A stretch of DNA of 64,000 nucleotides from a virus (IMGVR_UViG_2700989044_000001:11683-75682), one strand, 5' to 3'. Counted from the first letter of the stretch, positions 10,821 to 50,202 are shown. Translations and numbers: made by a program. Notes: generated by a model from the letters alone, not told the origin.

Positions 10821-11083
10821 TCCAATAAAACGGCGCGTTTTGAATTATCTTTTCAAAAAAATATAAAAAAAATTTTCTAAAACTGTTATATAAAATGCAA
10901 CTATCTGTATTTTTAACATGAGAGAACAACATGAGAACGTCGAATACGCTTGTTCAACAAACTAGGATTTTGTGTACTGCACTCATAACCCCCTATTTAT
11001 TTCCTAGTAAGCTGCAAGTTATTTCCGAGTCTCAAAGAAAACAATTTGATTTTCTCTCGATAACACTCGGAGGTGTATTTAAC

Positions 11084-11581
11084 ATGGCAGGTGGATTCAA
11101 AAATTTCGGTCCTACGTACAACTCAACTCCATATGTACGTTTAGGATATGAGGGCATTCTTAACGGTGCTCATGATATAGATGTTGCAGGTTTAAACGGT
11201 GTAGAACAATTAGCGGGTAAATTCGCTACTATTGGTGCTAATGGTGTTAAATTAGCAGGAGACAATGGTACTAATGCAGTAGGTCTTTTCCGTGAAGACT
11301 TAGGCGATATGGTTAATGCTTCTGAAAAAGCTTCCTTCTATTTCCGTGGTGGAGAATACTACGTAAACATTTCACGTACTTCTTTAACAGCTGCTGGTAT
11401 TGCTGCTGGCGACGAAATTACTTGTGATGCTGATGGTAAAATGATTAAATTCACTGGTACTGGTAAAGCTCTAGGTGTTGTAACACACGTTGGCGAATAT
11501 CGCGCTGGTAACATGTACGAAAAAGCTACTCAAGGTGTAACTGATACAGATACGTTTATCGGTTTCATCATGTACGTTTAA
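11084..11581 (+). CDS. head structural protein (decoration-like), highly expressed codon usage
   Basis: ATG after GGAGGTG RBS (ORF-track start 10931 is an extension); Gly/Ala-rich; codon usage shifts to cgt/ggt/gct as in the capsid gene. Confidence 0.45.
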   Translation: MAGGFKNFGPTYNSTPYVRLGYEGILNGAHDIDVAGLNGVEQLAGKFATIGANGVKLAGDNGTNAVGLFREDLGDMVNASEKASFYFRGGEYYVNISRTSLTAAGIAAGDEITCDADGKMIKFTGTGKALGVVTHVGEYRAGNMYEKATQGVTDTDTFIGFIMYV

Positions 11582-11606
11582 TAAGGGATAATAGGAGGTT
11601 AATATA

Positions 11607-12455
11607 ATGAGTCAATTATCAAATCAAGAAAAAGAATATTTAATTTCAAAAGCTCTTGAAACTGAAGAAGGCCGTGTAGCATTAGCTCAAGCAATGGCTA
11701 ACCCAATTCGTGTTTCTCTAGACTACCAAGGTGTAGGTCGTAAACTTTTAGTTGTTGACCCACTACCACAAGGCGCATTACCAGTTTACGATAAAGATGT
11801 TGACGCGAAAGCGTTCGTTATCTCTAAACGTGGTCAAGTACCTGATCAAGTTATCGAAGGTGACAGAATTCAAGTTCCAACTTTCGAAATCGTTTCTTAC
11901 CCACAAGTAAGATTCTCACAAGTTAAAGAGCGTCGTTTCAACGTTATTGACCGTGCTCAACAACGTGCTAAAGCTGATATCATGGCTGTTGAAGATGCTG
12001 AAATCTTCTCACTTTTAGAAGGTGCTGCTACAGCAGTTAACGCAGTTACTATCTCTTCTGGTGGTTTACAACGTGCAGCTTTAACTAAAGCTTTCCAAGA
12101 AGTAGAAAAACATGACTTAGTTGTTACTAAAATCGTTATGAACGCTTCTGCTTTCGCTGATATCCGTGCATGGGGACAAAACGAGTTCGACCCTGTAACT
12201 CAACACGAAGTATTACAAACTGGTTTATTCGGACACATCTGGACTGCAGATATCTTAATCTCTAAGAAAGTTCCTCAAAACACAGTTTATGTACTTGCTG
12301 ATCCTGAATTCGTAGGTGTTATGCCTATCCGTCAAGATATTCAAGTAATTCCAGCTGACAAGCCCGAAGAATTACGTCTCGGCTGGGTAATTTACGAAGA
12401 ATTGGGCCTTGCGGTAGTTAACTCTTTAGCAATTGCTAAAATTTCAATCCAATAA
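11607..12455 (+). CDS. major capsid protein (HK97 fold)
   Basis: 282 aa; capsid-like sequence; strong RBS TAGGAGG; high-expression codon bias; strong terminator downstream. Confidence 0.6.
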   Translation: MSQLSNQEKEYLISKALETEEGRVALAQAMANPIRVSLDYQGVGRKLLVVDPLPQGALPVYDKDVDAKAFVISKRGQVPDQVIEGDRIQVPTFEIVSYPQVRFSQVKERRFNVIDRAQQRAKADIMAVEDAEIFSLLEGAATAVNAVTISSGGLQRAALTKAFQEVEKHDLVVTKIVMNASAFADIRAWGQNEFDPVTQHEVLQTGLFGHIWTADILISKKVPQNTVYVLADPEFVGVMPIRQDIQVIPADKPEELRLGWVIYEELGLAVVNSLAIAKISIQ

Positions 12456-12483
12456 TATAAATTCAATTTATATATATAAATGA

Positions 12484-12510
12484 AAAGGACCTCTTAAAGG
12501 TCCTTTTTTT
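12484..12510 (+). terminator. rho-independent terminator
   Basis: AAGGACCTC-TTAA-AGGTCCTT followed by T7. Confidence 0.8.
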
Positions 12511-12566
12511 CTTGTTAAAGATTATCAACTTTCTTCATTAGAATAGAATATACTCTAATAAAAGGA

Positions 12567-13508
12567 ATGATTAGTTTGAAATGTCCAGTTTGCAATAAAG
12601 ATTTTAAAAGTAATAGTTTAAAAAGGCATCTAGGTTTAATGAAAGATGAAAATCATAATACCTTGTACAATAAACAAAAAGAAATTGCAATAAATTTATT
12701 TTATAATGTAGATTTTAAACCTAATAGTAATATAGGAGATTTTGATTTACTCATCACTTATAAAGATTGTAAAGTTTTATGGATGGATACATTTAGTGAA
12801 TCTGAAAGAAAAGAGAGGTCAAATAGATTAAAAAGTGAAGTTAAACCTTGGAATAAAGGTTTAACAGTTAGAGATCATAGAGTTAGAGAAATGCAAAATA
12901 AAAGAAATGAAACAACTAGTAAAGTGTTAAGAGAAAAATATAAAAATGGAGAAATGGCTGCATGGACTAAGGGGTTGAAGAAAGAAAATAACAAAAAATT
13001 AAGAATTTTAAGCCAAAAAATTTCTAAAACTATGTCAGAAAGAGAACAAAACAATAGTCGTGGCATTTCAGGTATTAGAAAAGACATTGGTCACCATGCA
13101 GCAAGTACTTATGAGGCTAACATATATAGAATTTTACAATATCATAGTTCAAGTTATTTAAAAGAATTTGAAATTATAAAAAAATTAAAAAGAGATAATG
13201 GAACCTTAAAATATTATAGATTAGATATAAAAGATATTGATGGTGTTTTTGGTGTTAAAAATGCTTTTATAGAAGTAAAGGGATTTATGAAAGAAGAAGA
13301 TAGAGAAAAAATAAGATTATTTAAACAACAATATCCCAATGAAACATTAATGATTATTGGGAATGGTGATAAGAGGGAAAATTATTTTTGGGAGCCAGAT
13401 GTTAATTATTTAGAATTAGAAAAAAAATATAAGCCTTTAATACCGTTGTGGGAAGATAGAAAGCAAAACTTAAGAACAACACCCGAGTTGTATAAAGATA
13501 ATGAATAG
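12567..13508 (+). CDS. Lys-rich protein with N-terminal C2H2-like zinc finger (possible free-standing nuclease/mobile ORF)
   Basis: CPVCNKDF...LKRHLG finger; flanked on both sides by terminators; very AT-rich. Confidence 0.4.
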   Translation: MISLKCPVCNKDFKSNSLKRHLGLMKDENHNTLYNKQKEIAINLFYNVDFKPNSNIGDFDLLITYKDCKVLWMDTFSESERKERSNRLKSEVKPWNKGLTVRDHRVREMQNKRNETTSKVLREKYKNGEMAAWTKGLKKENNKKLRILSQKISKTMSEREQNNSRGISGIRKDIGHHAASTYEANIYRILQYHSSSYLKEFEIIKKLKRDNGTLKYYRLDIKDIDGVFGVKNAFIEVKGFMKEEDREKIRLFKQQYPNETLMIIGNGDKRENYFWEPDVNYLELEKKYKPLIPLWEDRKQNLRTTPELYKDNE

Positions 13509-13534
13509 AGGACTGTACAAGGTCCTTTTTTTTA
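13508..13534 (+). terminator. rho-independent terminator
   Basis: AGGAC-TGTACA-AGGTCCT hairpin followed by T8. Confidence 0.7.
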
Positions 13535-13629
13535 TTTGTTAATTAAAGTGGCTATAATGCATTAAATTAACAACGTAATATAAATAATATATATTTTATT
13601 ACAACAAAACATTGAAATGAGGAATTCAA

Positions 13630-13815
13630 GTGGGTATATCAATTATTATGGCAATTTTCGTTTTCTTCTTATTATTCTTATTATTTTCCGCACTTTATGC
13701 AGCTTCCAACATAAAACCGAATTGTCCGAATTGCAATAAAGAATTTACAGTAAGTAAAAAAGAATATGACTATCATGTTGAATATCGTTGTTCAAATTGT
13801 GGATATAAATACTAA
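13630..13815 (+). CDS. small membrane protein with C-terminal zinc ribbon
   Basis: TM helix then CPNC...CSNC. Confidence 0.4.
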   Translation: MGISIIMAIFVFFLLFLLFSALYAASNIKPNCPNCNKEFTVSKKEYDYHVEYRCSNCGYKY

Positions 13816-13825
13816 GAGTTAGAAG

Positions 13826-14158
13826 GTGATTAAGATATTAGATAAGTTTAATGAACATGTAGAATCCATATTAACTATGACTGCTTTATTAAATTATGAT
13901 ATTTATAATGAAAACATAAGTTATCATGCAAGTAAAGGTAAAATGCATGAAAAAACGTATAGAGTTATAAAAAATGAAATGCATATAGATAATTTCTTTC
14001 GATTGAGGTTTGATAGTAGCTCAATAGTTGAAATTTCACTGATGTATAAGAATAATGAAGGCTATTGGCAAACGAAAGATTTAATTAAAGCTCCCAATGA
14101 AGAAGAAGTAAAAAATATGCTCGATCTTTTAATCATTAACAATAATGAGGGGAATTGA
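13826..14158 (+). CDS. hypothetical protein
   Basis: ORF in array. Confidence 0.4.
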   Translation: MIKILDKFNEHVESILTMTALLNYDIYNENISYHASKGKMHEKTYRVIKNEMHIDNFFRLRFDSSSIVEISLMYKNNEGYWQTKDLIKAPNEEEVKNMLDLLIINNNEGN

Positions 14159-14163
14159 TAGTT

Positions 14164-14481
14164 ATGGGTATGAGTACGGCGATTTGTAAAAATGAAGTAG
14201 AGAGATTTGAGTTAGTGAAACAAAATTACAATGGTAACTTACCTAAATTTATTAAAGAAGTGCATATGAATCTTGAAATCCCAAAAGGTTTTAGTTATCA
14301 GCAATTGGATTATGGTTCAAAGGGTATGAGTTTGACAAAAAGAGAATTATTGAATATCTTTGAACATAATTTAAATTCAAAATATTTAATGCTGTGGCAA
14401 AAAGAGTATTGTGAAGAGATTATTGAATTTGTAAAAAACCATGAAGATAGAACATTTATGTTGGTGCGGTATGAAATCTAA
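14164..14481 (+). CDS. hypothetical protein
   Basis: ORF; ATG after GAGGGG. Confidence 0.4.
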   Translation: MGMSTAICKNEVERFELVKQNYNGNLPKFIKEVHMNLEIPKGFSYQQLDYGSKGMSLTKRELLNIFEHNLNSKYLMLWQKEYCEEIIEFVKNHEDRTFMLVRYEI

Positions 14482-14824
14482 TCAGCTGCGTATATATGAT
14501 GAACTTAAAGATTTAAAGAAAAGATTTGTTAAAGATAAAGCATGTCCTATTTGTGGAAATACAAATTTGCAAACAATGTGGTTGTTTTCTGATTCAATTT
14601 CTTGTCCTCATGGATGCATTGATATATATCTAACAAGTAAAATTTTTACTGTAGATAACATGTTGGAATCAATAAAAATATGTGTAGTTAGAATATTTAA
14701 AGAGAGTATAGCAATGAATAATGATGATAGTGAAATTGAGCAAGAAGCAATTGAGAAAGTACAAAAAATGATAGATTATTGGAAAGAGAATGATAGATAT
14801 TTAGTAGAAATTTTATCAAAGTAA
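14471..14824 (+). CDS. zinc-ribbon paralog A (C-terminal YWKENDRYL motif family)
   Basis: CPICGN...C motif and C-terminal IDYWKENDRYLVEILSK. Confidence 0.5.
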   Translation: MKSNQLRIYDELKDLKKRFVKDKACPICGNTNLQTMWLFSDSISCPHGCIDIYLTSKIFTVDNMLESIKICVVRIFKESIAMNNDDSEIEQEAIEKVQKMIDYWKENDRYLVEILSK

Positions 14825-14856
14825 AGATAAAGTAAATTAAAGTTAGGAGAATAGTA

Positions 14857-15009
14857 TGATTACATGGTCGGTTTTAATTGGTTTGATTTTAGCAGCAGTG
14901 GGGGTTGTGGGACTTTATAAAGAAAAAAGTTGGGGTAAATTAGTATTATTTTTCTCTATGGGTTGGTTTATTGGAGAACTCCTAGGTAGAATTCTATCAA
15001 TTCTATAGT
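14857..15009 (+). CDS. small membrane protein (50 aa)
   Basis: Not in ORF track; AGGAGAATAGT-ATG; two TM helices. Confidence 0.35.
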
Positions 15010-15060
15010 ATATAGTAAAGTTATTATCAAAATAAATAATTATGAGGAGCGTAAGTAGAT

Positions 15061-15417
15061 ATGGATAATCCAGTAAATATTGGCGAATTTGTAGCTGGTA
15101 ATTTAAGAGGTGAATTTTTTAAGGATAGTACATGCCCTATTTGTAATAGTAAAAAAGGCGTAACACGTATATCTCTTGGGTCAGCGCGTTACACTCTTAC
15201 TTGTGAAGATGAATGTGTTAGTGTTATATTTGATGAAATTTTAAATTCTGTTGGAGACAAAACAATAAAAACAACAGAACATACAGTTAAAATATTTGAT
15301 GAAAAAATAACTATAGTGAATTGCGAAGAGATTGAAGAAAAGAAAAAAGAAGCGTGGGAGAAAATAAACTATTTAAAAGAGAATGATAGATACTTAGCTA
15401 AGAAGTTAGCAAAATGA
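15061..15417 (+). CDS. zinc-ribbon paralog B (YLKENDRYLAK motif)
   Basis: CPICNS...C and C-terminal INYLKENDRYLAKKLAK. Confidence 0.5.
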   Translation: MDNPVNIGEFVAGNLRGEFFKDSTCPICNSKKGVTRISLGSARYTLTCEDECVSVIFDEILNSVGDKTIKTTEHTVKIFDEKITIVNCEEIEEKKKEAWEKINYLKENDRYLAKKLAK

Positions 15418-15426
15418 GGTCACTAT

Positions 15427-15750
15427 ATGAACATAACTGAATTAAGAGATAGATTTTGTAATGGAAGTAAGTGTCCTATTTGTAGTAATGAAGTTACTAT
15501 AGATTATAAATTGTATTTTAGAATTGTTTGTCCTAATAGATGCATTTATATTTCTTTAAAGAAAAGAGTTATGAGTATTGTTGATGATAAAGTATCATCG
15601 GAAGACTTTTATACAATCAGTATATTTGGAGAAAAATGTAGTAATGAAGTGTTTGTTGAAATAGACAAAACAATAGTGAAAAATGTACAAGATAAAATAA
15701 AATATTGGAAAGAGAATGATAGATACTTAGCGAAAATATTGTCAAAATGA
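15427..15750 (+). CDS. zinc-ribbon paralog C (YWKENDRYLAK motif)
   Basis: CPICSN...CPNRC and C-terminal IKYWKENDRYLAKILSK. Confidence 0.5.
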   Translation: MNITELRDRFCNGSKCPICSNEVTIDYKLYFRIVCPNRCIYISLKKRVMSIVDDKVSSEDFYTISIFGEKCSNEVFVEIDKTIVKNVQDKIKYWKENDRYLAKILSK

Positions 15751-15831
15751 ATTATTTGATTCACTTAAGTTATTAAATATTTGTAGTGATAATTCTACGC
15801 AAAATTAAAGATGATAGTTGGTGAGGTGCGA

Positions 15832-16141
15832 AATGGATAGAGTAAGTTTAAATGTAGAAAAGCAGATTCATTCAATGTTAAGACAATATTATGTTTATGA
15901 TACAATAAAAGTGCCCGCAAATATGAATACAGTGACTGTTAAGAGAAAAGAAAAATTAAATGTAAGGAAGAAAATCTTATCAATAATACCAATCTATGAT
16001 TATAAAGAATGGGAAGAAGAATTAAGCGATTGGGAGATTTATGATATTCTTACGATTTTTGATAAGACGATATCTGTCTCAGTATGTATAGATTGTATTG
16101 GTGAAAAAGTTTATTGGAAGTATTTAGTAGAAGAAAAATAG
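15832..16141 (+). CDS. hypothetical protein
   Basis: ATG after GGTGAGGTG. Confidence 0.4.
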
Positions 16142-16165
16142 GATAGAAGAGGAGCAGTTTTTGAG

Positions 16166-16444
16166 ATGGATTTAGTTTGTAGAGATGGCTTGTGTCCAAT
16201 TTGTGGAAAAGAAATGATAGATCGAAAACATGCATTTTCTTATGGCAAAGAAAAAAGATGCATAAATGGTTGCTATTCATGTTCATCATTTGGTAAAACC
16301 TTTTATGACTTTATTGAATGGATTAAAATATTTAATCTTTACTATGCGCCAAGCGCGAAAGAAGAAATCATTGAAGAAATTAGAAAGTTAAAAGAAAATG
16401 ATAATTATATTACAGAAATAATTAAAATGTCGAAGTCTGAATAG
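16166..16444 (+). CDS. zinc-ribbon paralog D (degenerate, LKENDNYITEII)
   Basis: CPICGK...C motif, C-terminal IRKLKENDNYITEI. Confidence 0.45.
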   Translation: MDLVCRDGLCPICGKEMIDRKHAFSYGKEKRCINGCYSCSSFGKTFYDFIEWIKIFNLYYAPSAKEEIIEEIRKLKENDNYITEIIKMSKSE

Positions 16445-16535
16445 TTATATGTACTACTGATTTTAATAATCAGTAGTATTTTTTTATGAAAAAATAGTAT
16501 TAATAAAAGAATGAAGTTAATAAAAGGAGAGTTTT

Positions 16536-17051
16536 ATGAAGAGATTAATTAAGAAAGCTTCGGTCTATGATGTTCCTGAGGAATTTTTATTTTATTGGTG
16601 TTCAAGTCCAAGTGATATAAAATATAATTATCCAGAATCTATAGAAAAGATAGCTAATGAAAATACAGATTGTATTTTTAGTGGTGATGCTTATAGATAT
16701 ATTGAGTTACCTAATTTCGAGTATCAAGATAAAGAAATAGATCAATTACTTAAAGAAGCATGGGATGAAGTACAAACAGTCGAGAAGTATAGTTCATTCG
16801 CTTCATCAAAAAGAGGCGTAGAGCATTTTATTACAACTGATTATAGAAGTTTTGGAATTATTATTGAAGCGAATGTTAGCGGGATTGATATAAAGAAACT
16901 AACAAATAAGTATCGCGATACTGTAGATGAACAAGTTTTCGAATACGCTGATACAGAAGATGAAATAGTGACTTTGGATGTTGTTGATTCTTGGGATATA
17001 GCTGCAATAGTTATTGAAGAAGAGGTAGAGTGGATTCAGAGTGATATTTAA
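16536..17051 (+). CDS. hypothetical acidic protein with MKRLIKK leader
   Basis: RBS AAAAGGAGAG; N-terminal MKRLIKKAS. Confidence 0.5.
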   Translation: MKRLIKKASVYDVPEEFLFYWCSSPSDIKYNYPESIEKIANENTDCIFSGDAYRYIELPNFEYQDKEIDQLLKEAWDEVQTVEKYSSFASSKRGVEHFITTDYRSFGIIIEANVSGIDIKKLTNKYRDTVDEQVFEYADTEDEIVTLDVVDSWDIAAIVIEEEVEWIQSDI

Positions 17052-17080
17052 GAAGGTATGATAAAATACCTTCTTTTTTG
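17052..17080 (+). terminator. rho-independent terminator
   Basis: GAAGGTAT-GATAAA-ATACCTTC followed by T6. Confidence 0.7.
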
Positions 17081-17156
17081 TTGGAATCACTTTTTGTTAA
17101 ATACAGTTGACTATTTAATTAATATATAACAACATAATAAAGAAGGAGGACATCAT

Positions 17157-18197
17157 ATGATAGAAGAAGATGATTTGCTTGATGATTATGAGTTTCTTTC
17201 AAATAGAGAGAAAATTACACAGCGTCAATTTGAGTATTTGGTCCACTTAGTTGATTACTTTGATTTAGGTATGCATGAAAGAATGCTTGTATTTAATTAT
17301 TTAATCGATAAACACAAGATGATAGCTCACTTAACGAAAAATGAAGCAACAATTATTATTTCGCATTTAGAGGATTTAAAGAAAAAGCATAAATATAGTG
17401 CCTCATTCGCAAGAAAAGTTTTACTAGATGAGGTAGAAAAAAAGGTAGGAACAAAGAAAGTAGAAAAAACAAATGAAAGTGTTAGTGGAGTTAGAGAAAC
17501 TGAAGAAACTAAAGTTGTTAATGAAAAGGAGAATTCTACAATGAAATTTAAAAACTTGTTCGGTGGAGAAATTGGTAAAGACAAATCTGGTATGTTTAAA
17601 ATGTCTGCTTTAGGTTTAGCGGTAAAAAATGAAGAAGGTAATTACGTTTGTTATAATGGATCTAATATGGTAGATGTTTTAGACATGACGGTAGATATGG
17701 ACAACATCGTGTATAAGATTCCAGTGCAAAAAGTTGAAAAAGGTGATCTTATTATGTCTAATGGAAAGCCTGTATACGTTAAAAAGGTTAATGGTAATGA
17801 GTTAACAGTGTTTAATCCTTTTAACAATCGAAAAGAAAGTTACATTCCGCAAACAAATTTATTTGGATTTAACTTCTTCATTAAAGTTGTCAGCTTATTT
17901 GATCTTAGTAAACCAACCGATGGAAGCCAAGGTATGACATTCAATCCTATGTTCTTAGCTTTCGCTGACCGTGAAGAAGGCGATAAAAACGATATGTCTG
18001 AAATAATGATGATGAGCATGATGATGCAAGGTGGAAATCAACAAAACAATCAATTTAACAATATGCTGCCATTTATGATGATGAGTAAGGGTGAAAATTC
18101 TAACTTAATGGAAATGATGATGATGCAACAAATGATGGGTGGTCAAGGTTTTAACTTTAACCCATTCAATCAACCAGTTGATAACAACGAACAATAA
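17157..18197 (+). CDS. hypothetical protein with Met/Gln/Asn-rich low-complexity C-terminus
   Basis: RBS GAAGGAGGA; C-terminal MMMSMMMQGGNQQNNQFNNM... region. Confidence 0.5.
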   Translation: MIEEDDLLDDYEFLSNREKITQRQFEYLVHLVDYFDLGMHERMLVFNYLIDKHKMIAHLTKNEATIIISHLEDLKKKHKYSASFARKVLLDEVEKKVGTKKVEKTNESVSGVRETEETKVVNEKENSTMKFKNLFGGEIGKDKSGMFKMSALGLAVKNEEGNYVCYNGSNMVDVLDMTVDMDNIVYKIPVQKVEKGDLIMSNGKPVYVKKVNGNELTVFNPFNNRKESYIPQTNLFGFNFFIKVVSLFDLSKPTDGSQGMTFNPMFLAFADREEGDKNDMSEIMMMSMMMQGGNQQNNQFNNMLPFMMMSKGENSNLMEMMMMQQMMGGQGFNFNPFNQPVDNNEQ

Positions 18198-18212
18198 TTT
18201 GATCATTGATTG

Positions 18213-18245
18213 TAGGCGCAGATAAAATCTGCGCCTTTATTTTAT
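18213..18245 (+). terminator. rho-independent terminator
   Basis: AGGCGCAGAT-AAA-ATCTGCGCCT followed by T-rich run. Confidence 0.8.
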
Positions 18246-18315
18246 TAGAGAATAGAAGAGTAAAAAAAAGATGCTATAATGATTATTATTTAATAAATGA
18301 AAGGTGGTTTTTGGA

Positions 18316-18573
18316 ATGAACAACGAACAACATAAAGATGTAGGTAAATACAATAAAGAAGTAAAAGGTAAAAAAGCTGTTTTAAAAGAAGAGGTTTTTT
18401 TCTACACAGGTTATCATCGTACTGAAAAAACTAAAAAGACTTTTAAAGCTGGTACAACTATTACTGCTGCGCATGAAGTTATTGGTACTGGTTTAACAAC
18501 ATTTGATTTTAAATGTAATAAACAAGTTTTCCAACATGTCTTACGTAAAGATAAATTTGAATATATAGATTAA
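18316..18573 (+). CDS. hypothetical protein
   Basis: ATG after AAAGGTGG. Confidence 0.4.
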   Translation: MNNEQHKDVGKYNKEVKGKKAVLKEEVFFYTGYHRTEKTKKTFKAGTTITAAHEVIGTGLTTFDFKCNKQVFQHVLRKDKFEYID

Positions 18574-18592
18574 GATGTTGGAGGTTTAACTC

Positions 18593-18952
18593 TTGGAAAA
18601 AATTAATGAGGAAATAGATTCTTTTTTAGTATTACTAATTTTAAGCGAGGAAGAAGAAAAGGAATTTTCAAAATATTACAAATACCACAATGATGTAAAC
18701 AGTTACTTGTATTTTTATTATGATTCACATGCTTTTTTAACTATTAAAAAATCAGTAGGGTTCTTCTTAAAAGAAAATAAATATATCATTGAGTTTAAAC
18801 CAACTCTGAATTTACATTTTGATGTTAATATAGGAAAATCACTAAAGTCTTTAGGTTTTGATCATTTGATAACTATGGAAAGAGGAATCATTTTCAACAC
18901 TCCCGAAGAATGTGTAGATTTTTTAAAGGAATTCCTTGAAAAAATGATATAA
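18593..18952 (+). CDS. hypothetical protein
   Basis: ORF after GGAGGT. Confidence 0.4.
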   Translation: MEKINEEIDSFLVLLILSEEEEKEFSKYYKYHNDVNSYLYFYYDSHAFLTIKKSVGFFLKENKYIIEFKPTLNLHFDVNIGKSLKSLGFDHLITMERGIIFNTPEECVDFLKEFLEKMI

Positions 18953-18969
18953 GAGAGGGGAAACGAATT

Positions 18970-19428
18970 ATGCCACATATGAAGTTTTTTCAACAAGTAG
19001 CAGATATACAAAATCATCTTGAAAAAGTAATTGATGCCTTTCATGAAGAGAAATTTTTCTTATTAGAAAGTTGGGGTATTGATAAATCTGAGAGAATAGC
19101 TAATATTCTAGAAGAAATAGAGGTTTGCAGATATATTATAGGTTGCCGATTAAGTATAGTAAGAAAGAATAATGTTAAAAAGCCTTCTTATGAAGCTGTT
19201 TCACGTTGTTTTAATCGCCATTTATATTTCTTAGAAAAAATCCATAGAGTCAAGCCAAATTCAAGATATCCTTCTTCTGATTATAGATATCATGTAACTA
19301 AAGAAGCAAAAGCATGTAAACATTATTTATTTAAATTCAGTTTACCAGCTTGGGTTGATAAGTTGCCTGAAGAAATATTAACTTATGAAAACAAATACCC
19401 TAATCATAAAGAAAGATGGGGAAGTTAG
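18970..19428 (+). CDS. hypothetical protein
   Basis: ORF after GAGAGGGGAAA. Confidence 0.4.
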   Translation: MPHMKFFQQVADIQNHLEKVIDAFHEEKFFLLESWGIDKSERIANILEEIEVCRYIIGCRLSIVRKNNVKKPSYEAVSRCFNRHLYFLEKIHRVKPNSRYPSSDYRYHVTKEAKACKHYLFKFSLPAWVDKLPEEILTYENKYPNHKERWGS

Positions 19429-20082
19429 ATGTTAGAGAATAAAAATGAGGAAGAATTAATAGCAATAAAAGATAAATACTTAGATGAAGTACGAGATTTA
19501 CAAAGATTAATAGATGAAAAGAGAAAATCAATAAGAGAAATTGATGAACAATTACAAAGAAAACACGTTTGGTATGTCTATGATGTAGTTAGCACTATGT
19601 TAGAGCAATTAGAATTAAACAAGAATAGAATTTCTGATAATTCTTATTGGCTTTTACAAAGAGAAATAAAATCATTGTTATTAACTAATGCTACTGATAG
19701 TAAATTTTATAAACGTGGGAAAATAGTTAAGAATATTTATTTTAATTTCAAAAGCTTAATTGTAATGAAATTGTCAGAATATGATTTAATTACTAAAAGA
19801 TTTACCTATAGTCCTGTTTATAGATTTCAATTTAGTTTTGATGAGTTAAATAATAAAATTGATAGAAAATTCACATCTAATATTTTTTCAAAGCATTCAA
19901 AAAGGTTTTGTGATTTCGTTGTACCAATTGAGAATTTATCAGGTATGAATAAAGAAGTAATTAAATTAACAAAATCAAAGTATGATGATTATAAAGATAT
20001 TATGAATGATATAATATTGGTTACGCAATATATTGAGAATGAAATGGAAGCTAGATTTTTAGCTTGCAAATTGAATCAATAA
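19429..20082 (+). CDS. hypothetical protein
   Basis: ORF abutting previous stop. Confidence 0.4.
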   Translation: MLENKNEEELIAIKDKYLDEVRDLQRLIDEKRKSIREIDEQLQRKHVWYVYDVVSTMLEQLELNKNRISDNSYWLLQREIKSLLLTNATDSKFYKRGKIVKNIYFNFKSLIVMKLSEYDLITKRFTYSPVYRFQFSFDELNNKIDRKFTSNIFSKHSKRFCDFVVPIENLSGMNKEVIKLTKSKYDDYKDIMNDIILVTQYIENEMEARFLACKLNQ

Positions 20083-20094
20083 AAGGGTGATTAA

Positions 20095-20616
20095 ATGGCT
20101 AGAAAAAACATTAAAGTAGATTTTGGTTATCAGGAAGACAATACATTTAAGGGATCTGTTTTTATAGTTGATAAGTTTGAAGATTCTATCAATTGTCATT
20201 TAGAAAGAATTATTAAAACATTAGATGAAAGAGATTTTGAAAAAGTTGTCTTATACCCTTTACATGAAAATACATTAAAAAGAATGAATATAGATGTAAG
20301 TAAAAAATATTTTTCAAGGTTAGATGACTTGGAAAATTTAGTTAGTAATGTTAAAACATATATTCCAGTTAGTATAGATAAATTAGATGGAAAAAGAAAG
20401 AAATACACTCCATTGGATTTTATTTTAAATCACTTAACTGAAAAACATAAAAAACCATATTTTGTTTGTCTATCAAAAGATATTGCTAATAAATTTGCAA
20501 GTTATTCTTCGTTCGATACTTGGATTAAAGAAGTTAGATTAATAATAGCTGAAGATGTTACATTAGCTTTACACAAAAATTTAGAGAAAAATTCAAAAAG
20601 AATTGAATTTATTTGA
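20095..20616 (+). CDS. hypothetical protein
   Basis: ORF after AAAGGGTGA. Confidence 0.4.
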   Translation: MARKNIKVDFGYQEDNTFKGSVFIVDKFEDSINCHLERIIKTLDERDFEKVVLYPLHENTLKRMNIDVSKKYFSRLDDLENLVSNVKTYIPVSIDKLDGKRKKYTPLDFILNHLTEKHKKPYFVCLSKDIANKFASYSSFDTWIKEVRLIIAEDVTLALHKNLEKNSKRIEFI

Positions 20617-20718
20617 AATGGGAATATTTATATTTATTCCCATTCTTTTTTATTTTATTTAAATTTAGTTCACTATATAATAATAATATTAACTATAGGA
20701 GTTGAAAGGAGAATTAAA

Positions 20719-21111
20719 GTGGAATGGTTGAATGAACCGGATTTTCTGGAATGGGATTTTCATAATATGCATTGTTTGATAATAAGAAATGATCTTGGAG
20801 TTCTTTGTGGATATGTAGGTATAAGCAAAGAACACGAATTGTATCAAACTAATTATTGTAAGTTTAAAGTTCACGGAGGTATTTCTTTTACTGGTAATGA
20901 TGTGGCGGGAATGAAAGGAGATTTATTTTATTTTGGATTTGATTGTGCTCGCGCCAGAGATTTAATTCCAAAATTTGAAACATTTAATATTAATTTTATT
21001 GATGATGGAGGGTTTAAAACTTATAGAAATATAGAATACGTAAAAGAACATGTAAAAAATCTTGCATATCAATTGCATTATAGAACTTATATTATTGACG
21101 AGTTGTTGTAG
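20719..21111 (+). CDS. hypothetical protein
   Basis: GTG start after AAGGAG. Confidence 0.4.
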   Translation: MEWLNEPDFLEWDFHNMHCLIIRNDLGVLCGYVGISKEHELYQTNYCKFKVHGGISFTGNDVAGMKGDLFYFGFDCARARDLIPKFETFNINFIDDGGFKTYRNIEYVKEHVKNLAYQLHYRTYIIDELL

Positions 21112-21121
21112 GGGGTATTTT

Positions 21122-21424
21122 ATGTCATCATTCGAACATATTACTATTTGTCCAATATGTCAATCTGAATTAAGCAAACAAATATGGACTGGTGAAGGAT
21201 GGTTAGAAGAACTATATTTAAGGTGTGAGAATAAATGTTTTTATTACAGCTTCTCATATGGAGATACTAGAATTAGTGTTTTTGATAAAGAGGTAGAGTA
21301 TAGTTATAATGAAAAAGATAAGAGTGGTAAAGAAAAAATAGTTGAAAAAATGATTAAATATTGGAAAGAAAATGATAGATATTTAGCTAAGTTGATAAAG
21401 GGGATTAGTGATGAAGAAAGTTGA
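21122..21424 (+). CDS. zinc-ribbon paralog E (YWKENDRYLAK motif)
   Basis: ATG after GGGGGT (ORF-track 21062 start is an overlapping extension); CPICQS...C and IKYWKENDRYLAKLIKG. Confidence 0.5.
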   Translation: MSSFEHITICPICQSELSKQIWTGEGWLEELYLRCENKCFYYSFSYGDTRISVFDKEVEYSYNEKDKSGKEKIVEKMIKYWKENDRYLAKLIKGISDEES

Positions 21425-21608
21425 AGAATATACAGAAATAATGTGGGAAGTAGTATTTTTAGATTCAAAGGGTAAACTAATTGACCTTTGGGGAAACACT
21501 GAAAATGAAGATGAAATAGAACTTTTAAAAGAAAGAGCTATGAAAAAGGGGTATGATTGTATGGAAGTTAGTAAAATAACAAAAGAAGCAAAGAGATATA
21601 AATTATAA
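21408..21608 (+). CDS. hypothetical protein
   Basis: ORF only. Confidence 0.35.
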   Translation: MMKKVEEYTEIMWEVVFLDSKGKLIDLWGNTENEDEIELLKERAMKKGYDCMEVSKITKEAKRYKL

Positions 21609-21659
21609 TTTTAAACGTATATCTAACTGCCAGACAAAAAAGAAAGAAGGTAGATAGAT

Positions 21660-22073
21660 ATGATGAATTTCATAAAGAAATCACTTGGATTATTAAATGC
21701 CGCCGAGGGATTTATTCATATTTTTATTGCATGTATCGGGTTTTGGGGAATTTTCGCTACAGGCATTTATGATTGGAGAATTATTTCAGCGCCAGCTATT
21801 AATTTAGTTCTTGGAGTGTTTTCAATTTTTACAGGATACATTTTATTATACGATAAGGTTGGCATACTGAAAAAGATATTAGCAATTTTAAACACTCTTG
21901 AGGGTATTATCCATATAGTTGTAGCTCTTATTGGTTATTGGGGAATTTTTGCATATATGGTATTTGATTGGAGAATTTGGGCTACGCCAACAGAGCACTT
22001 ATTTTTTGGGTTATTCTCAATTTTAACGGGATATATACTTGGTAAAAATCACCATCACCATCATCACCATTAA
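21660..22073 (+). CDS. membrane protein with internal tandem duplication and C-terminal His7
   Basis: Two ~60-aa repeats each with two TM helices (…GFWGIFATGIYDWRI… / …GYWGIFAYMVFDWRI…); ends KNHHHHHHH. Confidence 0.5.
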   Translation: MMNFIKKSLGLLNAAEGFIHIFIACIGFWGIFATGIYDWRIISAPAINLVLGVFSIFTGYILLYDKVGILKKILAILNTLEGIIHIVVALIGYWGIFAYMVFDWRIWATPTEHLFFGLFSILTGYILGKNHHHHHHH

Positions 22074-22083
22074 ATCAAATAGA

Positions 22084-22122
22084 AGGTAGAAAAGGTAAAA
22101 TATCTTTTTCTACCTTTTTTTA
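22084..22122 (+). terminator. rho-independent terminator
   Basis: AGGTAGAAAA...TTTTCTACCT hairpin followed by T7. Confidence 0.7.
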
Positions 22123-22211
22123 ATTTCTGTTTAAACTATCATCATTAAATAATTAATATATAGTATATGACATTAAAGAATCGAAACAATAAATATGGGG
22201 AGAGTGAAATT

Positions 22212-22403
22212 ATGGCAAGAAAAATTAAAATCATTCGTAGAGCCGACATTGAGAAAGAGTATGAAAGAATGTTGAAATTAGAGTTGGATTATGAATTAGC
22301 TTCTTTGTTTTCCGCAATGAATGAAAAAAATGAAGTTGACATTGAAAAAAGCAAAAAACGTCTAACTGAAATACAAATGGATTTAGAAAGTTTAAAAGTT
22401 TAG
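22212..22403 (+). CDS. hypothetical protein
   Basis: ATG after GGGGAGAGTG. Confidence 0.4.
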   Translation: MARKIKIIRRADIEKEYERMLKLELDYELASLFSAMNEKNEVDIEKSKKRLTEIQMDLESLKV

Positions 22404-22414
22404 AAGGTGAAAAT

Positions 22415-22834
22415 ATGTGGGTAGATCCAAAAAGTTTAGAAGAAAATAAAGTGTTGATTAGCACTCTATTATCTGAACTTGATAAAGGCAATAATAAGAG
22501 AGCTAAGAAACTCGTAGATCATTTACTTGAAAAGAATTGGACAGTTAATATTAATTACATTGAACAAGAAAAAAAGAAAAGAAAAATCAAAAACTTAGAT
22601 GTTGATTTTGAAGCTATACTCTTAGGTAAATTCAAGGGTGACTATCATTTAACTACAAAGTGTAAGAAATACGTAGTAAGAATAACTAGTCAGAGGGCTG
22701 TCTTTTGGAAAATGGAAAAGTGGGTTAAATTAGGGGAATTTTTATTTGAAGATATTGAATTAACAGAAAAAGGCATTAAAGTTGGAATTGTAAAGATAGA
22801 GGTAGATGACAATGAACAAGAAACGGGAAGTTGA
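22415..22834 (+). CDS. hypothetical protein
   Basis: ORF after GAAGGTGA. Confidence 0.4.
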   Translation: MWVDPKSLEENKVLISTLLSELDKGNNKRAKKLVDHLLEKNWTVNINYIEQEKKKRKIKNLDVDFEAILLGKFKGDYHLTTKCKKYVVRITSQRAVFWKMEKWVKLGEFLFEDIELTEKGIKVGIVKIEVDDNEQETGS

Positions 22835-23144
22835 ATTGATATTAGAAAAGAAAAATCCTAATTTCTTCGAAATCTATTTTTTTGCTAAAAAGTTTAAATT
22901 GCCGCAAAAGAAATATGATACTTATCCCCATATTCATATGAATAATAAGACAAATGATGTTATGGTTGATTTTAATATACTTCTTACAGTTTCTTATAGA
23001 GAGAGTTCAAATATATACCGCATTTTTGGTGGAACATTTAGTCTTGCATATCCAAGTGAAGTATCTAGAGAAGAACTTGATTTTTGGTTACCTAGACTAG
23101 TTATTGAAAGTGAAAAATTTATTTTAAAAAATAATCTTAGTTAG
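22806..23144 (+). CDS. hypothetical protein
   Basis: ORF after GAGGTAGA. Confidence 0.4.
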   Translation: MTMNKKREVELILEKKNPNFFEIYFFAKKFKLPQKKYDTYPHIHMNNKTNDVMVDFNILLTVSYRESSNIYRIFGGTFSLAYPSEVSREELDFWLPRLVIESEKFILKNNLS

Positions 23145-23152
23145 GAGAAAGT

Positions 23153-23386
23153 ATGATGTCTTTAATAACAGAAATCAATATTAAAGTAACTGGTGACTAT
23201 TTACGAGGGACAATTAAAAATGATAAGTATTTAACTAATAATCTTATCTTACCACCAAGTATGGAAAGAAATAAACCGGAATTTGGATTAAATGTTATGC
23301 AAATAAGAAACATTATTAAAGAGTTAGAAGAATTAGCAGATTTAATGGATAGTTCAAATATAGCAAATACGTTAAAAAATAATTAA
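23153..23386 (+). CDS. hypothetical protein
   Basis: ORF after AGGAGAAAG. Confidence 0.4.
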   Translation: MMSLITEINIKVTGDYLRGTIKNDKYLTNNLILPPSMERNKPEFGLNVMQIRNIIKELEELADLMDSSNIANTLKNN

Positions 23387-23395
23387 ATTATTTTA

Positions 23396-23430
23396 AAAGG
23401 GACAATAAAAATTGTCTCTTTTTTTATTTT
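23396..23430 (+). terminator. rho-independent terminator
   Basis: GGGACAAT-AAAA-ATTGTCTC followed by T7. Confidence 0.7.
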
Positions 23431-23498
23431 TTGTAATAAATCTCGTTAATTAAGTCTATTCTTTTATATAGTGGAACCAAATAGGAGGATTTATAGAT

Positions 23499-24632
23499 AT
23501 GAAACGTTTAGTAAAAGCTGAACAACAGAGTAGTACTATCAAATTAATGCATGGTACATCTAGTAAATTAGCTGAATCTATTTTTGAAAACGGTCTTTTA
23601 CCGCAAGGATTGACTGATACAAAAATGTTTAATTATAGTGATTATGGTAGAGAAGGCGACGCAAGACATATTGAATGCGTATATTTAACTGATGATTTAG
23701 AAAATGCTGTTAGATACGCTAACAATGCTGTTAAACATAAGGGAGGATTTCCTTTAATTTTCGAAGTGGAAGTTGAGAAATCTGCTTTAACATGGGATGA
23801 CGATGCTTTTTATAAAAACTATGGCGATTTTGATTTTGGAGAAAAAGATGAAGAGTCTGGTACTTGGATCAAAAAACCATCTAAGCAATTGTGGGAACAA
23901 TCATTAACTATCAATAATCAATGTGCTCATTATGGCAAAATTGAAAGAGACAGTTTTAAAAGAATTAACTTAAATTCAAAATGGATCAATATTTATAATT
24001 TTATTAGAATTTACAATAGCTACGATAAGATGAATTTAAAACCAGAGTTGTTAAAAGAAAAAGAAGAATATTACTACAAAGAATTTAGTTTAGAAATAGA
24101 CGATAATTTAAAATTAATGGCTTCGATTATTGACAGAAATATATTTTTGTACAATTTAGAAATCGTAAAATCGCTTGATAAATTCGAAAAACAAGCTTTT
24201 TCATTGATCTTAATGGAATTTTTAAAGGACAATTTGAAAGAATTTGGAGCTAAAATTTTCTATACTTCAGATTTTAAATCATTAAATTTCAATCCAAAAA
24301 TTTCTAGTTTAAACTACGCTTTTGGTAGATTTGAAATAAATAGTTTAGAAAGCATACTTGATCACGTACAATTACGAATTCAACGTATGGATGAAGACTC
24401 TATAATGATGTCGAAGATAGTTAATTGCGAAGCTTCTGAAGAAGAATTTGACTTAATTTATGAGTATAGCATTGATTTCTCTGGAGATTTAATCGAATTC
24501 TGCGAAAAATCTTTACAAATGGATAATGATTCTATTCTTGATGTTTTAAAAAGAGTTAAACATCAGTATAACGATGCGTATAACGAGTTAGATGCTGAAA
24601 TCGAATACTTATTGTATAGAGATCATAAATGA
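23499..24632 (+). CDS. ADP-ribosyltransferase-fold protein (PARP/Tpt1-like NAD-binding lobe) with MKRLVK leader and ~270-aa C-terminal extension
   Basis: LMHGTSSKLAESIFENGLLPQGL...CVYLTDDLENAVRYA...FEVEVE resembles the HGT-GLLP-VHLSxDxExA pattern of KptA/Tpt1 and the H-Y-E lobes of PARPs; RBS AATAGGAGGA. Confidence 0.5.
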   Translation: MKRLVKAEQQSSTIKLMHGTSSKLAESIFENGLLPQGLTDTKMFNYSDYGREGDARHIECVYLTDDLENAVRYANNAVKHKGGFPLIFEVEVEKSALTWDDDAFYKNYGDFDFGEKDEESGTWIKKPSKQLWEQSLTINNQCAHYGKIERDSFKRINLNSKWINIYNFIRIYNSYDKMNLKPELLKEKEEYYYKEFSLEIDDNLKLMASIIDRNIFLYNLEIVKSLDKFEKQAFSLILMEFLKDNLKEFGAKIFYTSDFKSLNFNPKISSLNYAFGRFEINSLESILDHVQLRIQRMDEDSIMMSKIVNCEASEEEFDLIYEYSIDFSGDLIEFCEKSLQMDNDSILDVLKRVKHQYNDAYNELDAEIEYLLYRDHK

Positions 24633-26141: not shown

Positions 26142-26156
26142 AAGAGGTGTTTATTT

Positions 26157-26684
26157 ATGCCAATGAAAGCAAGAAAAATAACAACAACTGAGCTACGCTC
26201 AAAAACAATTGAAACACTAGAAGAAAGAGGTATTACACTTCACGATATTGCTGAAATTGTAGTCACTATCCAAAAGAGATATTCTCCAGATTTAACTATC
26301 GATGTGGCTATTCACAACATCTTAAGAGTCTTGCAAAAGAGAGAAGTATGCAATGCTATTTTAACAGGGTTAGCACTTGATAAATTAGCAGAACAAAATC
26401 TTTTACCCTCTCCAATACAAGAAATTATCATGTCAGATGAACCACTATATGGCATAGATGAAGTTATACCACTTTCTATTATTAATATCTATGGTACAAT
26501 TGGTTTTACTAGTTTTGGTTACTTAGATAAAGAAAAAATTGGTATCATTAAGAAGTTGGATGAAATGGAAGACACTGTTCATACTTTTGCTGATGACATT
26601 GTGTGTGCTATCGCAGCAGCTGCTGCAAGCCGAGTTGCTCATAGAAGTAGAGATATTGAGGATAATGTAGAAAAAGGTAGCTAA
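26157..26684 (+). CDS. hypothetical protein
   Basis: ORF after AAGAGGTG. Confidence 0.4.
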   Translation: MPMKARKITTTELRSKTIETLEERGITLHDIAEIVVTIQKRYSPDLTIDVAIHNILRVLQKREVCNAILTGLALDKLAEQNLLPSPIQEIIMSDEPLYGIDEVIPLSIINIYGTIGFTSFGYLDKEKIGIIKKLDEMEDTVHTFADDIVCAIAAAAASRVAHRSRDIEDNVEKGS

Positions 26685-50194: not shown

Positions 50195-50202
50195 ATGAGT
50201 TT

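What the first reader, a model, noticed from the sequence alone, without database searches (positions are those of the whole stretch)
14471..21424. Five-member paralog family: N-terminal Cys4 zinc ribbon plus conserved C-terminal YWKENDRYLAK motif
Five ORFs share the same architecture:
- 14471-14824
- 15061-15417
- 15427-15750
- 16166-16444 (degenerate)
- 21122-21424
Each has C-P-I-C-[GNSQ] ... C-x(1-4)-C near the N-terminus and a nearly invariant C-terminal [IK]xYWKENDRYLAK[IKL]L. The middles are divergent. Four are clustered and one is 5 kb away. Diversified paralog sets of small zinc-binding proteins in early regions of large phages are typical of host-takeover or anti-defence factors under diversifying selection.
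Basis: seen in the sequence. Interest (0 to 1): 0.6.

Follow-up and report, generated by a model that had tools for sequence, protein, structure and literature searches.

The report
Phage G's expanded zinc-ribbon gene family
The five small zinc-binding genes are real paralogs, but they are only the local part of a 36-gene zinc-ribbon family of giant Bacillus phage G that was already reported in 2021 and whose function is still unknown.

Summary
The window is Bacillus phage G (record positions 11,683-75,682), and the five ORFs are gp32, gp34, gp35, gp37 and gp46. All share CPIC...C-x3-C and a C-terminal [Y/K][W/L]KEND[R/N]Y motif.

They are not a five-member family. An iterated profile search and an independent BLAST clustering both give 36 members in phage G, about 5% of its genes and its largest family. 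These include a tandem array, gp444 and gp447-474, in which the domain is fused to an extra N-terminal domain.

Iyer et al. 2021 (PMC7824862) already reported "~35 copies of a ZnR (e.g. YP_009015343.1)". That accession is gp32.

There is no Pfam, NCBIfam or PADLOC membership. The only matches are to PHROGs of unknown function. AlphaFold gives a confident alpha+beta fold (pLDDT 90) with no structural homologue.

New here:
- The family is also expanded in uncultivated G-like megaphages, in an island at a conserved position after the capsid gene. Copy number there varies (5, at least 8, about 22).
- The motif is under very strong purifying selection (dN/dS about 0.1).
- Positive selection is not demonstrable.

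Function is untested. The family is most plausibly a repertoire of binding modules on a constant scaffold.

The parts
14471..14824 (+). gp32 (117 aa), ZnR-family member. Identical to YP_009015343.1, the exemplar cited by Iyer et al. 2021.
   Evidence: phrog_13559 E=5e-41
15061..15417 (+). gp34 (118 aa), ZnR-family member. Motif is YLKENDRYL; second knuckle is CEDEC.
   Evidence: phrog_13559 E=8e-35
15427..15750 (+). gp35 (107 aa), ZnR-family member, modelled. Elements: helix 3-10, strands 24-26, 31-34, 40-52 and 55-66, helix 81-106.
   Evidence: AF2 pLDDT 90.4, pTM 0.79
16166..16444 (+). gp37 (92 aa), the most divergent window member (KLKENDNYI). It is intact, with all four Cys.
   Evidence: phrog_13559 E=5e-24; profile E=7e-30
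21122..21424 (+). gp46 (100 aa), ZnR-family member 4.7 kb downstream. Its nearest relatives are in other phages (P0128, 47.6% identical).
14543..14554 (+). First zinc knuckle, CPIC codons of gp32. Equivalent sites: 15133-15144 (gp34), 15472-15483 (gp35), 16193-16204 (gp37), 21149-21160 (gp46).
   Evidence: both Cys 100% conserved in 203 non-redundant domains
15703..15726 (+). YWKENDRY motif codons of gp35. Equivalent sites: 14777-14800 (gp32), 15370-15393 (gp34), 16385-16408 (gp37), 21359-21382 (gp46).
   Evidence: dN/dS 0.09-0.12 for this segment
13507..13528 (+). Terminator-like hairpin after gp28. Upstream boundary of the gp29-gp37 unit that holds four ZnR genes.
   Evidence: 13 terminator-like sites against 2.6 expected
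13567..13595 (+). Sigma-A-like promoter match (TTAACA-17-TATATT, 10/12) between that terminator and gp29. Weak evidence.
   Evidence: promoter-like matches are not enriched overall
16451..16479 (+). Terminator-like hairpin (12-bp stem plus T-run) immediately after gp37. Downstream boundary of the unit.
20617..20644 (+). Terminator-like hairpin after gp44. Upstream boundary of the gp45-gp48 unit that holds gp46.
22081..22118 (+). Terminator-like hairpin after gp48. Downstream boundary of the gp45-gp48 unit.

Best explanation
SHOWN. The five ORFs are gp32, gp34, gp35, gp37 and gp46 of Bacillus phage G. They are the local members of that phage's largest gene family (36 genes), already published as a ~35-copy lineage-specific expansion of a zinc ribbon.

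Each encodes a module of about 100 residues, predicted with high confidence. It has:
- a short N-terminal helix;
- a Cys4 site (CPxC...CxNxC) stapling two small hairpins;
- a long, indel-rich, hypervariable beta-hairpin;
- a C-terminal helix of about 26 residues carrying I-x-Y-W-K-E-N-D-R-Y-L-x-K-I-L.

INFERRED mechanism. The zinc site and the hydrophobic stripe of the helix (I87, I91, W94, L101, L105, flanked by Y93, Y100, I104) form an invariant scaffold. The conserved polar run K95-E96-N97-D98-R99 on the same helix is a constant patch that engages one shared partner or ligand. The variable sheet and hairpin, together with a widely varying surface charge, give each paralog its own target.

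The genes are expressed in batches from terminator-bounded, moron-like units, and from a 21-gene polycistronic block in the big array. The family would then act as a repertoire of binding adaptors or inhibitors aimed at host, defence or nucleic-acid targets. It would not act as enzymes or as bulk DNA-packaging proteins.

Confidence in the identity is about 0.97. The figure below is for the mechanism.
For: Identity:
- 100% match to JN638751.1.
- gp numbering.
- YP_009015343.1 = gp32.
- The statement of Iyer et al..
- 36 members by converged HMM and by independent BLAST clustering; the next largest family has 8.

Fold: AF2 pLDDT 90.4 and pTM 0.79 for gp35. For the two-domain gp464, pLDDT 86.6 and pTM 0.83.

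Constant and variable partition, from 203 non-redundant domains:
- C16, C19, C35, C39 and Y100 are 100% conserved.
- W94, K95, R99, L101, N37 and F67 are at least 90% conserved.
- Entropy is about 4 bits, with indels, across residues 24-34 and 41-65.

Selection: dN/dS is 0.09-0.12 on the motif and 0.3-0.5 elsewhere, so every copy is maintained.

Charge: net charge runs from -9 to +21.

Batch expression:
- Terminators are enriched and bracket the units.
- Array gaps are -8 to +16 nt, with the two best extended -10 promoter matches in the only two large gaps.

Conflict-like dynamics:
- The island sits at a conserved position after MCP-gp28 in three G-like phages, with 5, at least 8 and about 22 copies.
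- ZnR identity there is 30-41%, while MCP is 91-92%.
- The family is phage-restricted, with none in 185,579 GTDB species genomes.
Against: No experiment, partner, ligand or expression timing is known.

The model coordinates could not be inspected. Which motif residues are exposed is therefore inferred only from helical periodicity. D98 sits on the hydrophobic stripe, and the polar run could be purely structural (intrahelical salt bridges, or capping of the zinc knuckle).

An N37/motif co-variation test gave nothing.

A motif invariant across proteins that supposedly bind different targets is equally expected for a family that all bind one and the same thing. Positive selection was not detectable.

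There is no similarity to any characterised adaptor, inhibitor or anti-defence protein.
Confidence: 0.4

Rival explanations
1. Specific transcription factors (the first suggestion of Iyer et al. 2021). The variable beta-sheet face reads different DNA sites. The constant helix contacts host RNA polymerase or a phage sigma factor, and so helps schedule expression of a 675-gene genome that has no polymerase of its own.
For: - Published proposal.
- Zinc ribbons often bind nucleic acid. Sub-threshold knuckle-level hits go to RpoP, Spt4, TFIIB-type and YacG ribbons.
- The constant-plus-variable layout also fits 'one polymerase contact, many operators'.
- Several paralog lineages are retained across phages.
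Against: - Many members are acidic or neutral (net charge down to -9), and the conserved patch is net neutral.
- 21 genes sit in one tightly packed polycistronic block, which is unusual for individually acting regulators.
- Copy number varies 5, at least 8 and about 22 at one syntenic locus, which is hard to square with a fixed regulatory circuit.
Confidence: 0.27
2. Structural, nucleoid-like or virion-internal DNA-binding proteins (the second suggestion of Iyer et al.) that coat or organise the 498-kb genome.
For: - Published proposal.
- The window copies lie next to the capsid module.
- High copy number could supply bulk protein.
Against: - pI ranges from 4.7 to 9.7, with no uniform basic character.
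- The hypervariable surface is the opposite of what a generic DNA coat needs.
- The genes are separated from the capsid genes by strong terminators.
- The particle-proteomics paper lists other DNA-binding proteins (gp239, gp346, gp377) and calls the array genes it mentions only 'Hypothetical'. Its full table could not be read.
Confidence: 0.08
3. Anti-defence or host-takeover arsenal in the strict sense. Each paralog neutralises a different host immune or housekeeping protein, like tandem immunity-protein arrays.
For: - Accessory, moron-like units.
- Birth-and-death copy-number dynamics and fast divergence next to slowly evolving capsid genes.
- Phage-restricted distribution.

This is a special case of the best explanation, not exclusive of it.
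Against: - No hit to any known anti-defence family.
- dN/dS is below 1 everywhere it is measurable.
- Several lineages are old and conserved between phages.
- An invariant motif is not expected if the only function is to track diverse, fast-evolving targets.
Confidence: 0.2
4. Non-functional or selfish duplicative DNA: gene-sized repeats that inflate the genome without a protein-level role.
For: Tandem head-to-tail arrays and genome-size inflation in megaphages. The 2026 jumbo-phage review speaks of arrays of more than 30 similar genes as duplication-driven expansion.
Against: - All 36 ORFs are intact, with invariant Cys4 and motif.
- Synonymous sites are diverged while the motif has dN/dS of about 0.1.
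- No pseudogene remnants were found.
- Paralogs are only about 31% identical (median), so they are old and maintained.
Confidence: 0.03

Closest known systems
Phage G 'ZnR' lineage-specific expansion described by Iyer, Anantharaman, Krishnan, Burroughs & Aravind 2021 (Viruses 13:63, PMC7824862, section 3.4.3)
   Same: It is the same family. Their exemplar YP_009015343.1 is gp32, the first ORF of the finding. Their '~35 copies' matches the 36 found here.
   Different: The paper gives one sentence and a supplementary figure. It calls the expansion lineage-specific to phage G and guesses at transcription factors or structural DNA-binding proteins.

Found here:
- The family is also expanded in at least three uncultivated G-like phages.
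- It has short and two-domain forms.
- It has a defined invariant C-terminal helix motif.
- It has a confident fold without structural homologues.
PHROGs phrog_13559 (107-residue profile) and phrog_4661 (205-residue profile), both 'unknown function'
   Same: All five window proteins match phrog_13559 end to end (E = 1e-24 to 1e-41). They also match the C-terminal half of phrog_4661 (E = 1e-12 to 1e-17).
   Different: These are automatic clusters without annotation. They split one domain family into its single-domain and two-domain architectures.
Classical zinc ribbons (Pfam Zn_ribbon families, RpoP, Spt4, TFIIB N-terminal ribbon, YacG)
   Same: Four Cys in two knuckles flanking short beta-strands. 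The first knuckle, CPxC, gives sub-threshold hits.
   Different: - The second knuckle is C-x-N-x-C (3-residue spacing).
- The ribbon is embedded in a larger alpha+beta sandwich with a long hairpin and a 26-residue helix.
- No Pfam or NCBIfam model reaches its cutoff.
Frataxin/CyaY-like and chaperone- or immunity-like two-layer alpha+beta sandwiches; T4 MotA C-terminal 'double wing' domain
Tandem multigene expansions in giant viruses and polymorphic-toxin immunity arrays (established knowledge, not tested here)
   Same: Many diverged copies in head-to-tail arrays, a constant scaffold with a variable surface, and copy-number turnover between relatives.
   Different: No sequence or fold relationship. 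In those systems the function is known or inferable from linked toxins or effectors. No such linked gene is evident here.

Membership tests
Phage G ZnR expansion (Iyer et al. 2021) | Contains the exemplar protein YP_009015343.1 | tested here: met
   NC_023719.1 annotation: YP_009015343.1 = gp32 at 26153-26506 = window 14471-14824
Phage G ZnR expansion (Iyer et al. 2021) | About 35 paralogous copies in phage G | tested here: met
   36 by iterated HMM over all ORFs. The same 36 by BLAST single-linkage.
Phage G ZnR expansion (Iyer et al. 2021) | Four-cysteine zinc-ribbon signature | tested here: met
   C16, C19, C35 and C39 are 100% conserved in 203 domains. Actual zinc binding is not testable with these tools.
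Phage G ZnR expansion (Iyer et al. 2021) | Lineage-specific to phage G | tested here: not met
   About 22 copies in IMGVR_UViG_3300042923_001459 / JAQZBO010000002.1. About 9 in 20 kb of RCUH01000011.1. 8 in SRR20950787_33970. 389 clusters worldwide. Among 50,697 deposited phage genomes, only phage G has it.
PHROG phrog_13559 | Full-length profile match | tested here: met
   E = 5e-24 to 5e-41, covering profile positions 1-106 of 107
Pfam/NCBIfam zinc-ribbon families (Zn_ribbon_3, YacG, DUF2387, RpoP, Spt4, YheV) | Score above the curated gathering cutoff | tested here: not met
   Best scores are 12.9-21.3 bits against cutoffs of 25-84 bits. Matches cover only the first knuckle.
Lar restriction-alleviation protein (PF14354) | Score above the gathering cutoff (28.6 bits) | tested here: not met
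   13.9-15.1 bits, in two metagenomic long forms only. BFVD 'restriction alleviation' hit has probability 0.09.
Known defence-system proteins (PADLOC) | Family-wide profile match | tested here: not met
   Only gp34 hits AbiEi (19.7 bits). No other member does.
Sequence-specific transcription factors | Specific DNA binding and effect on transcription | not testable with these tools
   [not shown]
[not shown]
   Best Z to CyaY is 5.2, 4% identity
Anti-defence / host-takeover proteins | Early expression and a demonstrated host or defence target | not testable with these tools
   No transcriptome held. Only consensus promoter matches are available.

The most novel reading that the evidence does not exclude
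G-like megaphages carry a fluid repertoire of tens of zinc-stapled mini-binders, comparable to an immune-receptor repertoire. The hypervariable sheet of each paralog would capture a different host or defence protein. The invariant YWKENDRYL helix would dock them all onto one common effector, for example the phage's own ClpXP (gp257/258) or host RNA polymerase. That would make it a programmable targeting system encoded by a virus.
Probability: 0.12. Interest if true: 0.75.

Novelty: already known. Interest (0 to 1): 0.33.

Why it matters
At 36 genes, about 5% of the gene content, this is the largest gene family in phage G, the largest phage in long-term cultivation. Iyer et al. 2021 called the expansion 'unprecedented'. 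Its function is a real open question about why megaphage genomes are so big.

The finding itself adds nothing to the fact that the family exists. The follow-up here sharpens the question in five ways:
- The family is a hallmark of the whole G-like clade.
- It sits in a positionally conserved but compositionally fluid island next to the capsid gene.
- Every copy is under purifying selection.
- It has a defined invariant helix that is an obvious target for mutagenesis and pull-downs.
- It has a fold not seen in solved structures.

If the constant-dock, variable-binder model were right, it would be a new kind of viral targeting repertoire. If the transcription-factor model is right, it would be the largest regulator family known in a phage.

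Tried and rejected
- DNA-level repeat or embedded regulatory element as the cause of motif conservation. Rejected, because synonymous codons vary.
- More copies or degenerate members in the window, such as gp36 between gp35 and gp37. None found, by motif scan or by an unfiltered HMM search up to E=10. Only zinc-knuckle-level noise appeared, at gp172 and gp29.
- Single-sequence search with gp464 in the 5.8-billion-protein index. It returned only itself.
- Profile against PDB sequences. Nothing below E=0.9.
- Foldseek against PDB: nothing. BFVD: only phage G paralogs. The AFDB50 library was unavailable.
- N-terminal domain of the long forms as a degenerate duplicate of the ZnR domain. hhalign probability 0.4%; rejected. 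It has no Pfam match.
It is computable only for the closest array pairs. The window copies are saturated (pS 0.5-0.77). No region exceeds 1 where it can be measured.
- Co-variation between knuckle Asn37 and the helix motif, to infer a contact. No signal.
- Virion proteomics. The supplement is not held, Gonzalez et al. 2020 is not held, and the tail paper is silent on these genes.
- Positional orthology of gp46 in a relative. Not confirmed. The island is conserved in position but the gene order inside it is not.
- Cellular homologues or prophages. None in GTDB species representatives.
- AbiEi hit of gp34. Isolated and not shared by paralogs, so treated as spurious.
- Functional context from neighbours (gp28-31, 36, 38, 39, 45, 47, 48). 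No Pfam family above cutoff.


Full report
**Observation**

The region was read with the ORF listing. All five ORFs are present at the stated coordinates on the + strand. They align with invariant C-P-I-C, C-x3-C, one Phe, and K-E-N-D-x-Y near the C-terminus.

A six-frame scan of the whole 64-kb window finds the KEND motif only in these five ORFs. Codons inside the motif differ at synonymous positions (GAG/GAA, TAT/TAC, GCT/GCG/GTA). The conservation therefore acts on the protein and is not a DNA repeat or an embedded regulatory site.

- The second knuckle is always C-x3-C.
- gp34 and gp37 have Leu for Trp.
- gp37 is divergent but intact.

**Where it comes from**

The window is 100% identical to Bacillus phage G (JN638751.1 / NC_023719.1, 497,513 bp) and starts at record position 11,683. 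The ORFs are gp32, gp34, gp35, gp37 and gp46. They lie directly downstream of the major capsid gene gp27 and of gp28.

Terminator-like hairpins are enriched (13 found against 2.6 expected) and divide the region into small units:
- gp29-gp37, with four members, lie between hairpins at 13507-13528 and 16451-16479.
- gp45-gp48, with gp46, lie between hairpins at 20617-20644 and 22081-22118.

Promoter-like matches are not enriched overall, so the timing of expression cannot be read from the sequence.

**Size of the family**

tblastn with gp35 found 17 places in phage G and none in any other of 50,697 deposited phage genomes. I fetched the whole genome and ran an iterated profile search over all stop-to-stop ORFs. 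It converged at 36 members:
- Seven single-domain proteins: the five in the window, plus gp166 and gp410.
- 29 proteins of about 180-220 aa in which the domain is C-terminal: gp206, gp444, gp447-451 and gp453-474.

The last group forms a head-to-tail array at 352.5-371 kb. An independent all-against-all BLAST clustering recovers exactly the same 36. It also shows that the next largest family has 8 members.

In the array, gp449-gp469 are separated by -8 to +16 nt, with no convincing internal terminator. The two best extended -10 promoter matches fall in the only two large gaps.

**Already known**

Iyer et al. [quoted passage not shown] In the RefSeq record YP_009015343.1 is gp32, the first ORF of the finding.

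No paper in the library contains the motif string. The 2025 phage G multi-omics paper lists the array genes it mentions (in its methylome table) only as hypothetical. The 2026 jumbo-phage review does not discuss the family.

**Database membership**

- No Pfam, NCBIfam or PADLOC model reaches its threshold. The sub-threshold hits all cover the first CPxC knuckle of other zinc ribbons.
- All five proteins match phrog_13559 full-length and the C-terminal half of phrog_4661. Both are annotated 'unknown function'.

**Structure**

With a 97-sequence alignment, AlphaFold2 models gp35 at mean pLDDT 90.4 and pTM 0.79. The elements are helix 3-10, strands 24-26, 31-34, 40-52 and 55-66, and helix 81-106.

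| Search | Result |
|---|---|
| Foldseek against PDB | Nothing below E = 0.1 |
| Foldseek against BFVD | Only phage G paralogs |
| Profile against PDB sequences | Nothing |

The two-domain gp464 model has pLDDT 86.6 and pTM 0.83. It has an N-terminal bb-a-bbbb-a domain, a linker helix, and then the ZnR domain. The N-terminal domain is not a detectable duplicate of the ZnR domain, and in phage G it never occurs alone.

**Conservation and selection**

In 203 non-redundant domains:
- The four Cys and Y100 are 100% conserved.
- P17, I18, N37, F67, W94, K95, R99 and L101 are at least 90% conserved.
- I91, Y93, E96, N97 and D98 are 81-89% conserved.
- Residues 24-34 and 41-65 have entropy near 4 bits, and the tip of the hairpin is full of indels.

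In the C-terminal helix, positions 87, 91, 94, 101 and 105 (plus 93, 100 and 104) form the hydrophobic stripe. K-E-N-D-R is a conserved polar run. Net charge of the 36 proteins ranges from -9 to +21.

Paralogs are old. Median domain identity is 31%, the closest pair is at 61%, and the window pairs are at 25-38%.

Nei-Gojobori estimates:

| Comparison | dN/dS |
|---|---|
| Closest pairs, gene-wide | 0.34-0.49 |
| Motif segment | 0.09-0.12 |
| Other regions, close pairs | 0.3-0.5 |
| Window copies | Saturated, uninformative |

Positive selection is therefore not demonstrated. Purifying selection on every copy is.

**Distribution**

The profile finds about 100 relatives in the word-indexed search. 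It finds 389 clusters (E <= 1e-3) among 1.84 billion representatives, in two length classes. No relative exists in 185,579 GTDB species genomes.

Three uncultivated G-like phages carry the family:

| Contig | Homologues of phage G genes | ZnR copies |
|---|---|---|
| IMGVR_UViG_3300042923_001459 (= 'Bacillales MAG' contig JAQZBO010000002.1) | gp19 80%, gp26 60%, MCP 92%, gp28 about 37% | About 22 in about 20 kb immediately afterwards |
| Logan SRR20950787_33970 | Same capsid module, MCP 91.5% | 8 in the next 8 kb |
| Compost RCUH01000011.1 (475,962 bp) | gp53-gp58 at 52-58%, downstream of the ZnR genes | About 9 in 20 kb |

The ZnR proteins of these islands are only 30-41% identical to those of phage G.

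By best hits, gp46, gp37, gp34, gp166, gp410 and gp206 are closer to proteins of other phages than to any phage G paralog. gp32 and gp35 are mutual nearest relatives, and the array members group together. The family is therefore not specific to phage G. It combines old, retained paralog lineages with lineage-level tandem expansion, in an island whose position is conserved but whose content is fluid. Strict positional orthology of gp46 was not confirmed.

**Interpretation**

What is shown: identity, family size, fold prediction, the constant-and-variable layout, purifying selection, batch-wise gene organisation, restriction to phages, and copy-number turnover.

What is inferred: the zinc site and the hydrophobic face of the helix are a scaffold, the K-E-N-D-R run is a shared docking patch, and the variable sheet gives each paralog its own target. 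On this view the family is a repertoire of binding modules.

How this bears on the alternatives:
- It fits the transcription-factor idea of Iyer et al. about equally well.
- It fits a bulk DNA-packaging role poorly, because charge is variable and the surface is hypervariable.
- A junk-DNA reading is excluded by the selection pattern.

I could not inspect model coordinates, no expression or interaction data exist, and the polar motif could still be purely structural. Confidence in any mechanism is therefore modest.

**Verdict**

It is unsupported for 'early region' and 'diversifying selection', and untested for function. The family itself is already published, so the finding is not new. The open and interesting question is what 36 copies of this module do.

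Noticed in passing
window 12567-13508 (gp28): A 313-aa protein directly after the capsid gene. It has an N-terminal C2H2/C2HC-like CPVC...H zinc finger (sub-threshold Pfam hits) and a C-terminal stretch 'DIKDIDG...AFIEVKG' that looks like a PD-(D/E)xK nuclease motif. A homologue (about 36% identical) keeps the same position between MCP and the ZnR island in two relatives.
   Followed up: partly
window 13630-13815 (gp29): A 61-aa protein with an N-terminal transmembrane helix followed by a separate CPNC...CSNC zinc ribbon (sub-threshold Zn_ribbon_4 / LITAF-like). It is the first gene of the unit that holds four ZnR genes and is not a family member (profile E=0.08).
   Followed up: partly
window 21660-22073 (gp48): A 137-aa predicted membrane protein made of an internal duplication (two similar halves of about 60 residues). 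It ends in a natural run of seven histidines (…GKNHHHHHHH). No Pfam match.
   Followed up: partly
window 17157-18197 (gp39): A 346-aa protein whose C-terminal part, about 100 residues, is an extreme Met/Gln/Asn-rich low-complexity region (MMMSMMMQGGNQQNNQFNN…MMMMQQMMGGQGFNFNPFNQ). No Pfam match.
   Followed up: no
window 50188-51685 (gp102-gp106): A second, unrelated tandem paralog family in the window: five adjacent genes of about 95 aa that cluster together by BLAST.
   Followed up: partly
window 23499-24632 (gp53) and 59247-60167 (gp123): Two window genes belong to a dispersed five-member phage G family (with gp141, gp233 and gp251). gp53 is 58% identical to a syntenic gene in the 476-kb compost phage contig.
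   Followed up: no
window 11000-23500: Intrinsic-terminator-like hairpins are about five-fold enriched (13 against 2.6 expected). They fall almost only in + strand intergenic gaps and chop the region into units of 1-9 genes. The hairpin after the capsid gene (12482-12508) scores on both strands.
   Followed up: partly
phage G record 371,002-372,645 (L009 28002-29645), outside the window: A 1.6-kb stretch without any annotated gene immediately after the last gene of the 28-gene array (27% GC). It contains no remnant of the ZnR family. Its content was not examined further.
   Followed up: partly
phage G record 353,240-353,871 and 357,276-357,590 (gp445, gp446, gp452), outside the window: Three genes of about 105 aa, interspersed in the ZnR array, are not family members and have no Cys4 site. 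Their relation to the array's N-terminal domain was not tested.
   Followed up: no
GenBank assembly GCA_029238855.1, contig JAQZBO010000002.1 (L014): A contig deposited as 'MAG: Bacillales bacterium' is in fact a phage-G-like megaphage. It overlaps, in the stretch fetched, an IMG/VR viral contig whose major capsid protein is 92% identical to that of phage G. The bin is therefore at least partly viral.
   Followed up: partly
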